Virus record (IMG/VR): IMGVR_UViG_2861053794_000003
Location: 1 to 48,167 of that record
DNA from: a virus
Taxonomy: Duplodnaviria > Heunggongvirae > Uroviricota > Caudoviricetes
Reading direction: 5' to 3' (one strand)
Length of the DNA: 48,167 nt
Position numbers: made by a program. Of the stretch, positions 1 to 3,000 are shown piece by piece; within the stretch, counting starts at the first letter, position 1; every line of letters begins with the position of its first letter.

Positions 1-3000
1 TTATTTCATCTCCCAGCCAACCGGATATGCCAGTATTTCATCCGCACTGGTCAGCTTTTCCAGCTCTTTCTTCATCGTGCGCTGGCGAATGTGGATTTCC
101 ATCCCTTTCTGAAACATCGCCTTTTCTGCCGCAGCACTGAGCGCGATCAAAGCCTCCGCTGTCATCGGCACGTCATTATTTTCTGCATCTGTCCAGAAAA
201 ATCCCTCCGGCAGTATTCCCGCTTTTGCTGCTGCCACCGACGGCTCAAGACGAACCTGAGTCACCTTGCCGTAGTCCCACTTCCGTCCATTGTACTCAAA
301 CACATACTCCGCATTTTCCATGGCACTTCGCCAGGCATTTATTTCTGCCCCCTTCTGTTCACGGGCTCTGTCAGCCGTCAGCAGGTCGGTGATTTTTTCC
401 CCGTCAAACCCCCAGCGTCCGCTCAGGTCAATTTTCAGGCTCTCCGGTGTGTCCGGCACTTCAGCCACACTCTGGTTCACCGGCCACAACAACTTAATGT
501 CCTTACCATATCCCGTAATCACACCACGGCTGTCATACACCACCTTCAGCGTGTCTTCCGCAAACCTGGACTGGCATTCATACCAGTCCTGACCATCCTC
601 AGATTTCAGGTATATCGCACCCGCCACATCCGGCTCTGCCGGTGTGTAATACGAAAAATTTCTGACATGCATCATTTTCCCGTGCCCTCTTCCGATACCA
701 GCACCCAGACCGGCATTTTTTCCGTACCGACGCCCCGCTTCATGCCCGCCGGTGCAGCATCCGCTGCAAAAACTTTATACACGGCATAGTCCACCACGAT
801 ACCATCCACAGGCCAGTTCCCGGCGGCCTCATAAACGGCACGCAGGGATACCGGATAAAACATATTCGCGGACGGTGAAAAAACATAACTCTCCATAATC
901 CCTCCTCAGTATCCGGTCGCTTCCCAGAAAAATGTCCCGTAACTCCCCTTAATAGTCCGAAGTGTCACCGTCTGTAATGACGGTTCTGACAGGGTATACA
1001 TCTGAATGGTATGCTGGTCTCCCACTGCAGATACCTGAACATTCAGTACAGCACTCGGAAAAGCAACAGGGAAACGAACGGAGTGCAGGGACAGTGCTTT
1101 ACCATCAGCCTGACTCACGTCAATACGCCCCCATTGCCGTATCCGGCCTGTGGCCTCATCACGTTCCCAGCCATTGACAGCCAGACTCGCCGTCGTGGGT
1201 TTATTCCTGGTACTGTAATCCACCCGCCAGTGGTATTTCCGGGTATCGCCATAAACAGTACAGGTGCAGACCGTTCCGTTGAGAAACCCCGTTGCGGCGT
1301 ATTCCCCGATGGTCACACGGACAATCGCAGCGTTATATGTTCCTGCCACCTCTACAGCACATCCGCCCAGGTTAATTTTCCCGAGTCCCGTATCTGTAAT
1401 AACCTTATTCATCGCCGCAGGCAGTGCCACCTTCATCATCCAGAAGGTGTGGTCAAATGCCCCCTGCTCTTTCAGCCAGGCAACAAACTCTTCTGTCGTC
1501 CACTCACCTGCGCCGGTTGAAATATCACGCCCGTATGCTCTGGGCACACCAAGCTCACGGATGAAGGCTTCCCTGTCTGTAATATCTTCAAGGCTGCCTG
1601 ACTTTCCCTGAGGCCCCTGCGGTCCGGTATCCCCCTTTGGTCCCTGTGGACCGGTATCTCCTTTTGGTCCCTGCGGCCCCGCCGGGCCTGTATCGCCCTT
1701 TGGCCCGGGAGGGCCACCCGGGTCTCCTTTCTCTCCTTTCTCGCCCCGCTCACCTCTGAGCCCCGTATCCCCCCGGTCACCCTTTGGTCCCACAGGACCG
1801 GCTTTACCCTCGGGTCCTGTGGCACCGGTATCCCCTTTTGGCCCCGGAGCACCCTGTGCACCTGTTTCACCACGCTCCCCCTTTGGCCCGGTTGCACCTG
1901 TCTCACCTTTCGGTCCCTGTACCCCCTGCGGTCCCGGGTCGCCTTTATCACCCTTCGGCCCTCTGGCATTCTCTGCCCGTTTTTTGGCCTCCTCTGCACT
2001 GGCTGCAGAGGCTTCAGCACGCTTCAGTATTTCCGCTGCCACCGCTTCCAGCTCAGCGAGGGCTTTCGGATAATATGGCGCATCCTCAAAGTCCATCAGG
2101 AATTTATTCAGTGTTCCCGGTGCAGAGTCCGCCTTCACCAGAATGTCACCGACGTATGACGGCATACGCCCTTCTGTGTTCAGGGTCACACGGTACAGCC
2201 CCGGTTCAACATCCATACTGTAGCTGCCTGTCTCCCCCGGCTGCCCGTATGCCACCGTGGTGACAATCACCGTTTCGGTGGTACGTCGCGCTTTCAGCTC
2301 TATCGTGCATCCCGGTACCGGCTTCCCCGCGCCGTCCTTCAGCACACCAGATATTCTGACTGCCATAGATTTTCCCCATAAAAAAACCGCAGTGCCGGTT
2401 TCCCGGCCTGCGGTAAAAATCGTGGTTTACAGGATTAAAAAGGTGCCATCCGGCTGACCACCTTCAGCAACCGGTCAGCGGGGGACAGGGTCCCCCGCCA
2501 CGGTTTCTTACTGTTTACACTGTAAGAACGCCGCAATCTCCGCGCCCGCTATCCGGAACCGGAATTCACACAGTGAACTGTGGGTGGTCCAGATAATGAG
2601 CACTACCGTGATACAAATCACGGTGGTTTTTAACGGTTTTTGCGACATAACGCTTGCTCCTTTTACGGAGAGGCGCTAACCTTTCACTTGCTTAGGATGA
2701 ATGGTCAGGCCTCGGGTTAAACATGAATGTTTTGTCCGGGGCCTTTTCACATCCGGCCTTCAGGTGTTCCCTCCGGCCATCAGCCAAAGGCACCCGCGCA
2801 TACTGTACGGTTTTTATCTCCTTCCGGCAATTCCGGTCATCATGTTCACGAAATACTGATACCCGCCGTGGATTTTTTCATGACCACAACCAGTAAATCA
2901 CTGATGTATGTTGTCGGCGTCCAGTGGCTCACCCCGTTCGACCACACATTAAACGTCAGGGTCACATGACCCCGTCCTGCCGGCATATCAATGACGGACG

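What the first reader, a model, noticed from the sequence alone, without database searches (positions are those of the whole stretch)
2380..2845. hok-like type I toxin gene in the lom position between J and stf, flanked by strong RNA structures
A 46-codon ORF missed by the ORF track (minus strand 2648..2508) has a good SD and encodes a single-TM peptide whose C-terminal half (SLCEFRFRIAGAEIAAFLQ) follows the Hok/Gef core (..LCEIRYR...EVAAF..). A perfect 9-bp GC hairpin follows the stop and an 11-bp stem plus U7 terminator lies ~90 nt further on, consistent with a folded hok-type mRNA. The ~200 nt upstream of the ORF is non-coding and could carry the antisense Sok-like RNA on the + strand. No intact mok-like overlapping frame was found. 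A type I toxin-antitoxin here would be a stabilisation or defence moron in the tail-fibre region.
Basis: partly seen in the sequence, partly recalled or inferred. Interest (0 to 1): 0.7.

Follow-up and report, generated by a model that had tools for sequence, protein, structure and literature searches.

The report
Prophage hok/sok toxin-antitoxin cassette
The small gene between the tail-tip gene J and the tail-fibre gene is a real Hok-family membrane toxin with its folded mRNA and a predicted antisense antitoxin RNA, but this gene is already annotated in hundreds of E. coli prophages and a two-residue variant has already been shown to be toxic, so it is ordinary apart from lacking the usual 'mok' leader gene.

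Summary
ORF 2648..2508 (-) encodes a 46-aa peptide that passes Pfam HOK_GEF (41.1 bits, cut-off 22) and PHROG 251. The flanking ~415 nt fold like a hok mRNA (MFE -187 kcal/mol, z -8.8), with a ~20-bp 5'-3' closure of the tac/fbi type. The leader matches the Rfam hok/sok leader model (E 3.6e-10, below gathering).

By homology, a ~58-nt Sok-like RNA is predicted on the + strand (~2690-2748). Its -10 hexamer, TAACCT, is the one mutated in the published sokW promoter knock-out.

- RefSeq annotates the identical protein as 'Hok/Gef family protein' in the same J-stf position, and the sequence occurs on 428 public contigs.
- A 44/46-identical variant was cloned for a 2026 toxicity screen that names only three other constructs as non-toxic.
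- hok enrichment in prophages is published.

The ~390-bp cassette also sits after lom in Stx phages and at the ends of P2-like prophages.

One point is not ordinary. No mok frame can read into hok here, and leader ORFs vary haphazardly across 65 relatives, although the peptide evolves as a coding sequence. Folding suggests that Sok and 3' processing gate the hok ribosome-binding site directly. This is an inference and is untested.

The parts
2825..2830 (-). hok promoter -35 (TTGCCG), 16 nt after the J stop codon
   Evidence: Read from the sequence. Spaced 17 nt from the -10. TTGCC[GC] is kept in most relatives. Scores 8/12 to consensus, just under the scanner's threshold.
2802..2807 (-). hok promoter -10 (TACAGT)
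   Evidence: Relatives carry TAGATT, TAAATT, TAGAAT or TACATT, all of the form TAnnnT, at the same place. It lies 6-7 nt before the GGGUGCC 5' end, which is also where the Rfam model starts.
2380..2795 (-). predicted full-length hok mRNA (about 416 nt)
   Evidence: MFE -187.3 kcal/mol against -137.0 +/- 5.7 for shuffles, z -8.8. The 5' and 3' ends pair with each other.
2775..2795 (-). tac-like 5' element (GGGUGCCUUUGGCUGAUGGCC)
   Evidence: Pairs with 2462..2441 in both the MFE and the centroid structure. Duplex energy is -36.5 kcal/mol. Family cognate mean is -31.5 against -20.8 for shuffled 3' segments.
2441..2462 (-). fbi-like 3' element (GGUGGUCAGCCGGAUGGCACCU)
   Evidence: Three of the four variant fbi cores in the family are C-to-U changes that keep a G-U pair; the fourth, a 5'-end change in L079, gives an A-C mismatch.
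2670..2713 (-). Sok-target stem-loop. The outer stem GAGGC:GCCUC pairs the former mok SD with part of the anti-SD. The loop CCUAAGCAA (2696..2688) carries a YUNR U-turn motif.
   Evidence: Folds at -20.3 kcal/mol. All 25 sequence variants in the family fold into a hairpin (24 into the same long one; the divergent L090 forms only a short stem), with changed inner-stem sequences; 22 of 25 have YUNR in the MFE loop. Matches Rfam model positions 86-137.
2676..2750 (-). 24-codon leader ORF (GTG 2750 to TAG 2676). It does not overlap hok and ends 13 nt before the hok SD.
   Evidence: A weak SD (AAGG) lies 6 nt upstream. Its fate is highly variable among relatives, so it is probably not a conserved functional element.
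2657..2662 (-). hok Shine-Dalgarno (AAGGAG)
   Evidence: It lies in the hairpin UAGCGC-CUCUCC...GGAG-CAA-GCGUUA.
2508..2648 (-). hok CDS, 46 aa, single-TM Hok/Gef toxin
   Evidence: Pfam PF01848, 41.1 bits against cut-off 22. PHROG 251, 74.8 bits. RefSeq WP_042022545.1, 'Hok/Gef family protein', at identical coordinates. Exact sequence on 428 contigs.
2478..2498 (-). 9-bp GC hairpin after the stop; the likely 3' end of the processed (active) mRNA
   Evidence: Compensatory changes occur in relatives (pair 324-335 GC:35/AU:16; pair 325-334 AU, GU, GC, CG). The role is inferred from the R1 system (PMC9841398).
2380..2413 (-). intrinsic terminator (11-bp stem plus U7), ending 13 nt before the stf start codon
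   Evidence: It lies outside the part shared with Stx-phage and P2-like copies, which have their own terminators.
2654..2659 (+). predicted sok promoter -35 (TTGCTC)
   Evidence: Read from the sequence. It lies 17 nt before the -10. Inferred.
2677..2682 (+). predicted sok promoter -10 (TAACCT)
   Evidence: The same hexamer sits at the homologous place in hokW-sokW, where primer YO-421 replaces it to make the promoter-less sokW construct. Its complement AGGTTA is invariant or nearly invariant in 65 relatives.
2690..2748 (+). predicted Sok-like antisense RNA (about 58 nt): a single-stranded 5' tail complementary to the target loop, then a terminator hairpin and UUUU
   Evidence: Position mapped through Rfam RF01794 and the annotated sokC of K-12. 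Folds at -22 kcal/mol, z -3.1. No expression data.

Best explanation
This is a hok/sok-type type I toxin-antitoxin cassette carried as a moron between tail genes J and stf of a lambdoid E. coli prophage.

Shown here:
- A 46-aa Hok/Gef-family peptide with a strong ribosome-binding site.
- A sigma-70-like promoter directly after the J stop codon.
- A highly structured ~416-nt mRNA whose 5' end (tac-like) pairs with a 3' element (fbi-like).
- A leader homologous to known hok leaders.
- A stem-loop with a U-turn loop at the place where Sok binds in known systems.

Inferred by homology:
- A ~58-nt Sok-like RNA is made from the + strand (about 2690-2748) from a TAACCT -10 promoter.
- The full-length mRNA is inert. 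Slow 3' trimming back to the GC hairpin after the stop codon refolds it.
- Sok pairs with the refolded leader and keeps Hok from being made.
- When transcription of the locus stops, the short-lived Sok decays first, and the stable mRNA is translated into a membrane-depolarising toxin. Transcription could stop through loss of the prophage or through host shut-off by a superinfecting phage.
- Sok could also be disturbed by late-operon read-through during induction, which runs in the same direction as hok.

Inferred from folding only: unlike plasmid R1, this clade needs no mok. Sok binding frees the anti-SD (GCCUCUCC) from the decoy GAGGC, so that it closes the hok SD. Trimming does the reverse.
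For: Identity:
- Pfam HOK_GEF 41.1 bits, above cut-off 22. PHROG 251 'MokW-like host killing', 74.8 bits over the full length.
- All six internal residues reported as >80% conserved in Hok are present: C12, T14, L26, C27, E28, E37.
- RefSeq annotates the same ORF in the same J-hok-tail fibre context. 235 of 5426 complete E. coli genomes match.
- The 44/46-identical peptide 79_1563 was in the overexpression toxicity screen, and the text lists only three other constructs as non-toxic.

RNA:
- Rfam RF01794, E 3.6e-10, over 2795..2637. The model is hok-sense, as shown on K-12 hokC/sokC.
- Full-length fold z -8.8 with 5'-3' closure. tac/fbi duplex -36.5 kcal/mol.
- The target hairpin is kept in all but one of 25 variants, and most have YUNR loops. 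13 of 72 consensus pairs show compensatory changes.
- The sok -10 TAACCT is identical to the hexamer destroyed in the published sokW promoter mutant.

Coding constraint: 69 of 71 unique relatives are intact. dN/dS is 0.08 within the P2-like group and 0.16-0.5 between groups.

Cassette behaviour:
- About 390 bp (2833..2442) is shared at 77-79% identity with copies after lom in Stx phages and at the ends of P2-like prophages.
- hok has the same orientation as J, lom or stf in all 33 loci where these flank it.

mok-independent gating:
- Cost of opening the hok SD..AUG in 61 relatives: full-length 11.4, trimmed 7.7, trimmed with the Sok target blocked 11.7 kcal/mol. The trimmed form is lowest in 60 of 61.
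- R1 control: 17.5 / 16.8 / 18.1 kcal/mol.
Against: - I found no transcript data for this locus: neither the hok mRNA ends nor the Sok RNA has been observed.
- The Rfam score (51.1) is below the gathering score (59). The NCBIfam HokA and Hok-subfamily models are far below their cut-offs. The promoter scanner found nothing at its threshold.
- In R1, translation of mok up to the hok SD is mandatory (PMC9841398). A locus without mok could therefore be translationally silent.
- For the window itself the computed accessibility differences are small (10.6 / 9.0 / 11.1 kcal/mol).
- The 61 relatives are not independent.
- Cognate tac/fbi duplexes are barely better than non-cognate ones (-31.5 against -30.0), so co-evolution of the two ends is not demonstrated.
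- The biological role (stabilisation, defence or lysis help) is not addressed by any result here. PADLOC has no model matching it.
Confidence: 0.85

Rival explanations
1. Silent relic. The cassette is a hok/sok descendant that lost mok. Hok can therefore no longer be translated from its own mRNA, as with several inactivated chromosomal hok loci. It persists only by hitch-hiking, or because its RNA structures and terminator are useful between J and stf.
For: No frame can read into the hok SD. In R1, mok translation up to the hok SD is required (PMC4147584). Leader ORFs are haphazard in the family. dN/dS of the J-stf lineage against the others is only about 0.5, and within the lineage 0.66 on very few changes.
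Against: The ORF is intact in 69 of 71 unique relatives with near-invariant length. dN/dS is 0.08 within the largest group, most of whose members also lack a mok-like frame. The promoter, SD, tac/fbi and target loop are all kept. The hok SD is computed to be much easier to open than in R1 (5-9 against 17 kcal/mol).
Confidence: 0.1
2. Leader-ORF coupling. The window does have a functional mok analogue: the 24-codon ORF from GTG 2750 to TAG 2676. A ribosome terminating at UAG melts the 5' arm of the SD hairpin and allows initiation at hok. Sok, which covers this ORF from its start codon to the loop, blocks it, as Sok blocks mok in R1.
For: The ORF exists with a weak SD (AAGG, 6-nt spacer). It ends 13 nt before the hok SD, at a UAG that is invariant in the family. 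The predicted Sok is complementary to 2690..2748, which is almost the whole ORF.
Against: Across 65 relatives, an ORF from that ATG/GTG site reads into hok in 18 and ends at the conserved UAG in 13. In the remaining 23 that carry the motif it stops earlier, and in 11 the motif is missing. The invariant UAG is also part of the SD-hairpin stem and of the sok -10 complement, which explains its conservation without any coding role.
Confidence: 0.2
3. Lysis helper rather than addiction or defence module. As proposed for hokW-sokW of Sp5, Hok is made after prophage induction and speeds host lysis and phage release.
For: hokW-sokW deletion halved Sp5 release, and HokW appeared after mitomycin C in a RecA-dependent way (PMC8621323). 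hok here is co-oriented with the late operon in all 33 J/lom/stf contexts. Late read-through would therefore cross the sok promoter head-on.
Against: hokW is a different locus: 16 of 46 residues identical, it has mokW, and it lies at the other end of Sp5. Nothing here tests timing. The same cassette also sits at the ends of P2-like prophages, where I did not examine the flanking transcription units. This rival concerns the biological role only and is compatible with the molecular mechanism above.
Confidence: 0.25
4. Chance ORF inside a structured intergenic region (a J-stf terminator or attenuator), with no toxin.
For: The ORF is short, and gene callers often miss it: it is unannotated in NC_000902.1 and other phage records.
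Against: Pfam E 1.4e-10 and PHROG E 8e-21. Coding-type conservation. A near-identical peptide was in the published toxicity screen, which names only three other constructs as non-toxic.
Confidence: 0.01

Closest known systems
46-aa hok downstream of lom in Stx phages (933W, VT2-Sakai/Sp5, ST2-8624; 'host toxic membrane protein'; cluster 72 of Escalera-Maurer et al.)
   Same: Same length. 30 of 46 residues identical, about 77% DNA identity over promoter-to-fbi (window 2815..2442). Same leader architecture and the same invariant AGGTTAGCGCCTC. Same orientation within the tail-fibre/late region. No conserved mok.
   Different: It sits after lom rather than in place of it. It has a different terminator and downstream gene, and different hydrophobic-core and C-terminal residues (FRLNLWG against FRFRIAG).
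Hok homolog 79_1563 (cluster 79) in 'The Hok bacterial toxin' preprint, 10.1101/2025.08.07.668861
   Same: 44 of 46 identical. It is the commonest J-stf-type variant in my IMG/VR sample. It was cloned and tested for toxicity, and the text names only three other constructs as non-toxic.
   Different: The window has T21 instead of I and Q46 instead of R. The preprint tested the CDS alone under a fixed SD and did not analyse mok, Sok or the genomic position.
hokW-sokW (with mokW) of Sakai prophage 5
   Same: A prophage-borne hok/sok type I TA shown experimentally. Same sok -10 hexamer, TAACCT, at the homologous place, and the same 5' end (GCGGGUGC...).
   Different: Only 16 of 46 residues identical. 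It is 51 aa, has an in-frame 70-aa mokW, and lies at the right end of the prophage on the opposite strand to the late genes.
hok/sok of plasmid R1 (parB)
   Same: Hok/Gef peptide core, tac/fbi closure, post-stop 3' hairpin, antisense RNA against the leader, GAGG:GCCUC pairing, and a target loop with a U-turn motif.
   Different: R1 has a 70-codon mok overlapping hok that is required for translation. The R1 hok SD costs about 17 kcal/mol to open in every state, against 5-11 here. R1 is on a plasmid, with a proven post-segregational killing role.
hokC (gef)/mokC/sokC of E. coli K-12
   Same: The Rfam leader model matches both. The annotated sokC gave the mapping for the predicted Sok position.
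   Different: mokC is an in-frame N-terminal extension of hokC. The Rfam score is 118 bits for hokC against 51 for the window. 16 of 46 residues identical.
lambda lom/bor-type morons in the J-stf region
   Same: An independently transcribed, non-structural cargo gene between J and the side tail fibre gene, with its own promoter and terminator.
   Different: lom is an outer-membrane protein gene. The window has no lom homologue.

Membership tests
Hok/Gef protein family (Pfam PF01848) | Match to the family HMM above the curated gathering score | tested here: met
   41.1 bits against 22, E 1.4e-10, residues 10-44 on profile positions 8-42 of 42.
Hok/Gef protein family (Pfam PF01848) | Residues conserved in >80% of Hok peptides (C16, T18, L30, C31, E32, E41 of the published logo) | tested here: met
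   C12, T14, L26, C27, E28 and E37 of the window peptide correspond to the logo positions reported in the preprint. The correspondence was made by eye along the Pfam-aligned core.
Hok/Gef protein family (Pfam PF01848) | Toxicity on overexpression | not testable with these tools
   Not testable here. The 44/46-identical variant 79_1563 was in the screen of 45 homologs, of which the text names only 19_179, 60_1482 and 69_1540 as non-toxic.
NCBIfam HokA equivalog (NF007290) / Hok subfamily (NF007279) | Score above the curated cut-off | tested here: not met
   37.1 against 89 bits and 35.5 against 73 bits. It is not a HokA orthologue and lies outside the curated Hok subfamily model.
PHROG 251 'MokW-like host killing' (phage moron family) | Full-length match to the family profile | tested here: met
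   74.8 bits, E 8.2e-21, residues 1-46 on profile positions 2-49 of 50.
[quoted passage not shown] | Leader RNA homologous to known hok leaders (Rfam RF01794) | tested here: inconclusive
   51.1 bits, E 3.6e-10, full model length, but below the gathering score of 59. The Stx-phage relative scores 35.6 and K-12 hokC scores 118.3.
[quoted passage not shown] | 5' tac element pairing with 3' fbi element in the full-length mRNA | tested here: met
   About 20 bp in both MFE and centroid. Duplex -36.5 kcal/mol; family mean -31.5 against -20.8 for shuffled. This is a prediction, not probing data.
[quoted passage not shown] | Cis-encoded antisense Sok RNA with its own promoter and terminator, opposite the leader | tested here: inconclusive
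   Position mapped by homology to annotated sokC. The -10 TAACCT is identical to the sokW element mutated in PMC8621323. Terminator hairpin plus UUUU, z -3.1. No transcript evidence.
[quoted passage not shown] | Target stem-loop with YUNR U-turn loop for Sok recognition | tested here: met
   Loop CCUAAGCAA contains CUAA. The hairpin is kept in all but one of 25 family variants, with YUNR in 22 of the 25 MFE loops. The role of YUNR loops in hok mRNAs is from my own knowledge of the field (Franch et al. 1999); I did not read that paper here.
[quoted passage not shown] | mok leader ORF overlapping hok, whose translation is coupled to hok | tested here: not met
   All three frames are closed before the hok SD in the window. 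46 of 69 relatives have no ORF reading into hok. Leader ORF fates are variable. The locus is therefore a hok/sok relative that departs from the R1 paradigm in this one feature.
[quoted passage not shown] | 3' processing to a truncated, translatable mRNA ending in a stable stem-loop | not testable with these tools
   A stable 9-bp GC hairpin sits at the homologous place and shows covariation. Processing itself cannot be tested here.
Known anti-phage defence systems (PADLOC-DB) | Match to any defence-system protein model | tested here: not met
   No family matched at E up to 1.

The most novel reading that the evidence does not exclude
The 46-aa Hok clade (preprint clusters 72 and 79; J-stf, lom-adjacent and P2-like copies) may be a natural mok-independent version of hok/sok. 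The former mok SD (GAGGC) would survive only as a decoy that holds the anti-SD (GCCUCUCC). Sok binding to the target hairpin would release the anti-SD so that it closes the hok ribosome-binding site. The antisense RNA would thus control toxin translation through a three-way RNA switch instead of through a leader peptide. Because the cassette is always co-oriented with the late operon where it sits among tail genes, late read-through could also silence sok and time Hok production to the lytic cycle.
Probability: 0.3. Interest if true: 0.45.

Novelty: already known. Interest (0 to 1): 0.2.

Why it matters
As a finding it matters little. The gene is already named in RefSeq, grouped in PHROGs, catalogued in a recent Hok survey (which included a near-identical variant in its toxicity screen), and hok enrichment in prophages is published.

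Its practical value is for annotation. Many phage records, including the VT2-Sakai reference, leave this 46-codon toxin and its antisense RNA unannotated. Rfam's gathering score misses the leader. Rfam's 'sok' model is on the hok strand, which can mislead strand assignment.

The one scientifically useful lead is that this well-conserved clade lacks the mok leader gene, which textbook accounts call indispensable. That offers a natural system for asking how an antisense RNA that binds about 45-100 nt upstream of a start codon can control translation without a leader peptide.

Tried and rejected
- The simple promoter/terminator scanner found nothing in 2300-2950. Both promoters score 7-8 of 12 and the terminator stem has a bulge, so I read them from the sequence and from family conservation instead.
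- I first assumed the Stx-phage relative was the published hokW. The primer sequences and the VT2-Sakai record show that hokW is a different locus, at 57501-57713, with its own mokW.
- RNAalifold on the 65-sequence alignment did not recover the tac/fbi helix or the Sok-target hairpin, because indels misregister those columns. I tested them per sequence instead.
- The test for co-evolution of the tac and fbi ends gave no clear signal: cognate -31.5 against all combinations -30.0 kcal/mol.
- Three script runs were lost: one returned no answer and two timed out on an unbounded loop on frameshifted relatives. The run was repeated correctly.
- One leader-ORF classification used wrong offsets and was redone.
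- Searching the Hok preprint text for hokW, Stx or lambdoid found nothing. The peptide was found only in its supplementary tables.
- I considered, and rejected, the 33-codon ORF from GTG 2793 to TAA 2692 as a mok remnant. It starts 3 nt from the mRNA 5' end, and its frame is broken by indels in relatives.
- PADLOC gave no hit.
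Full report
**What is there**

On the minus strand, 16 nt after the stop codon of the 1158-aa tail-tip gene J (2846..6322), lies a sigma-70-like promoter: TTGCCG at 2830..2825, a 17-nt spacer, and TACAGT at 2807..2802. A transcript would start near G2795.

The 46-codon ORF runs from ATG 2648 to TAA 2508. Its SD, AAGGAG (2662..2657), is 8 nt upstream of the ATG. A perfect 9-bp GC hairpin (2498..2478) follows the stop codon. 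An 11-bp stem with U7 (2413..2380) ends 13 nt before the start of the tail-fibre gene (906..2366). That gene has Pfam domains phage_tail_N, Collagen and Gp53-like_C.

**Is it a Hok?**

Yes.
- The peptide scores 41.1 bits on Pfam HOK_GEF (cut-off 22, E 1.4e-10).
- It scores 74.8 bits over its full length on PHROG 251, 'MokW-like host killing', which PHROGs files under morons.
- It is below the cut-offs of NCBI's HokA equivalog and Hok subfamily models, so it belongs to a separate branch.
- It is 15-16 of 46 identical to Hok of R1, HokC and HokW.
- PADLOC has no matching model.

**Is it known?**

Yes.
- A megablast of 2367-2845 finds 235 of 5426 complete E. coli genomes. 11 are at 99% identity or more.
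- In strain 95-3322, RefSeq annotates the identical ORF as 'Hok/Gef family protein' (WP_042022545.1) between gpJ and a prophage tail-fibre gene.
- The exact peptide is on 428 contigs of the public collection under that name.
- A recent preprint (10.1101/2025.08.07.668861) catalogues 44,248 Hok homologs and reports enrichment in prophages.
- Its Table S2 lists 79_1563, MSQKPLKTTVICITVVLIIWITHSSLCEFRFRIAGAEIAAFLQCKR. This is 44/46 identical to the window peptide, and it is among the constructs cloned for the toxicity screen.
- The main text says 42 of 45 constructs were toxic and names three others as the non-toxic ones.

**The RNA**

Rfam's RF01794 ('sok') matches 2795..2637 on the minus strand over the whole model (51.1 bits, E 3.6e-10, gathering score 59). 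I ran the same model on K-12 hokC. It hits the hokC/mokC strand, while the annotated sokC lies on the other strand inside the hit. The model therefore describes the hok leader, not Sok itself.

Carrying the sokC coordinates through the model places a Sok-like RNA on the window's plus strand at about 2690-2748. That stretch folds as a single-stranded 5' tail followed by a 10-bp-closed hairpin and UUUU (-22 kcal/mol, z -3.1). Upstream lie TTGCTC (2654-2659), a 17-nt spacer, and TAACCT (2677-2682).

The same TAACCT sits at the homologous place in the experimentally studied hokW-sokW locus. There, primer YO-421 of Takada et al. replaces exactly this element to make the promoter-less sokW construct. 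I deduced this by comparing the primer with the native VT2-Sakai sequence. Its complement, AGGTTA, is invariant or nearly so in 65 relatives.

The predicted full-length mRNA (2795..2380) folds at -187.3 kcal/mol, against -137.0 +/- 5.7 for shuffles (z -8.8). Its first 21 nt pair with 2462..2441. This is the counterpart of the tac/fbi closure that keeps R1 hok mRNA inert (PMC9841398).

**Relatives**

From these and the annotated records I extracted 71 unique 510-nt segments.
- 69 of the 71 keep an intact Hok ORF of 45-47 codons (66 of exactly 46), in 22 peptide variants.
- dN/dS is 0.08 within the largest group and 0.16-0.5 between groups. The sequence evolves as a coding sequence.
- RNAalifold finds 72 consensus pairs, 13 of them with compensatory changes, including in the post-stop hairpin.
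- The leader hairpin that holds the Sok-binding site occurs in 25 sequence variants. All but one fold into the same long hairpin, with changed inner stems, and most carry a YUNR motif in the loop.

**Where it sits**

The part shared between contexts is about 390 bp (window 2833..2442), running from the promoter to fbi. The terminators are context-specific.

Among roughly 120 loci there are three contexts:
- About 22 have J upstream and the stf N-terminus downstream (the window's type).
- About 11 have lom upstream (Stx phages such as 933W and VT2-Sakai).
- The rest flank neither J, lom nor stf. The two I inspected are P2-like prophages (P88 and 500465-2), and the cassette often lies at the edge of the predicted element.

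hok is co-oriented with J, lom or stf in all 33 loci where these flank it. The window has no lom and no second hok. 'In the lom position' is therefore a fair description, and the cassette behaves as a small mobile moron.

VT2-Sakai/Sp5 carries two hok loci. One is the published hokW/mokW at 57501-57713. The other is the 46-aa relative at 44701-44838, which its reference record does not annotate.

**The one unusual feature: no mok**

In R1, translation of the overlapping mok frame up to the hok SD is mandatory for Hok synthesis, and Sok acts by blocking mok.

In the window, all three frames are closed between the former mok SD (GAGG, 2713..2710) and the hok SD, and no start codon follows the last stops. 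The TAA that closes the R1-type frame lies in the loop of the Sok-target hairpin, as part of its YUNR motif.

Across the family:
- 46 of 69 members have no ORF that reads into hok.
- ORFs from the only recurrent upstream start site (AAGGCCNGATGTG) end anywhere. 18 of 65 read through hok, 13 end at an invariant UAG 30 nt upstream of the hok ATG, the other 23 with the motif stop earlier, and 11 lack the motif.
- In the window this gives a 24-codon, non-overlapping leader ORF (GTG 2750 to TAG 2676).

Such variability, set against strong constraint on the peptide, argues against a required leader peptide.

**How it could work without mok (inference)**

GCCUC (2674..2670) pairs with GAGGC in the target hairpin. 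It also belongs to UAGCGCCUCUCC, which can pair with the hok SD region instead.

I computed the free-energy cost of opening the hok SD..AUG region.

| RNA state | 61 relatives | Window | R1-type control |
|---|---|---|---|
| Full-length | 11.4 +/- 1.4 | 10.6 | 17.5 |
| Trimmed to the post-stop hairpin | 7.7 +/- 1.5 | 9.0 | 16.8 |
| Trimmed, Sok target made unavailable | 11.7 +/- 1.6 | 11.1 | 18.1 |

All values are in kcal/mol. The trimmed form is the cheapest to open in 60 of 61 relatives.

The direction fits a direct switch: trimming opens the site and Sok closes it. But this is thermodynamic modelling only, the relatives are not independent, and the effect in the window is small.

**Verdict**

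The object is a member of an already annotated and catalogued Hok clade, so interest is low. The residual novelty is regulatory: an apparently mok-independent hok/sok variant.

What the cassette does for the prophage remains open. It could be addiction, abortive defence against other phages, or help with lysis as reported for hokW. It needs the experiments listed under next steps.

Noticed in passing
window 8755-9918 (-): A full-length general porin gene (Pfam Porin_1, 480 bits) sits inside the tail-gene block, just upstream of the minor tail protein L gene. RefSeq calls the same gene 'porin OmpC' in strain 95-3322. This is an unusual position for a prophage porin moron.
   Followed up: partly
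window 29563-30678 (-): Four tandem copies of the Rfam sRNA family STnc100 (77-132 bits, gathering score 47) lie next to each other, just downstream of two tRNA genes (31307-31458) and upstream of a SASA/NanS-like esterase gene (27414-29459).
   Followed up: no
window 2849-3595 (-) and related loci L003, L011, L031 and others: In about 20 related phages, the hok cassette and the stf N-terminus are 88-99% identical to the window, but the last 250 residues of J are only about 65% identical. A recombination boundary therefore lies at or just before the J stop, and hok travels with stf rather than with J.
   Followed up: partly
L127 (NC_000902.1) 44701-44838; L128 7501-7713: VT2-Sakai/Sp5 carries two different hok loci. 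The reference record annotates only hokW/mokW (orf74). The 46-aa hok after lom is not annotated there or in many other Stx-phage records.
   Followed up: yes
Rfam RF01794, tested on L004 (K-12 hokC/sokC): The Rfam family named 'sok antitoxin' matches the hokC/mokC strand (602-754, -), while the annotated sokC is on the opposite strand (653-711, +). Strand calls taken from this model are therefore inverted with respect to the real antitoxin.
   Followed up: yes
L017 7837 and 8333 (+): One IMG/VR contig holds two copies of the conserved hok 3' motif about 500 bp apart on the same strand, which suggests a tandem duplication of the cassette.
   Followed up: no
L001 7815-9616: In E. coli 95-3322, whose hok region is 100% identical to the window, an IS100 element follows the tail-fibre gene, which is shorter there (422 aa) than in the window (486 aa).
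   Followed up: no
window 2380-2413 (-) against stf start 2366: The hok terminator's U-tract ends 13 nt before the stf start codon. Constitutive hok transcription in a lysogen would therefore be stopped just before the tail-fibre gene, while Q-antiterminated late transcription would pass through (inference).
   Followed up: no
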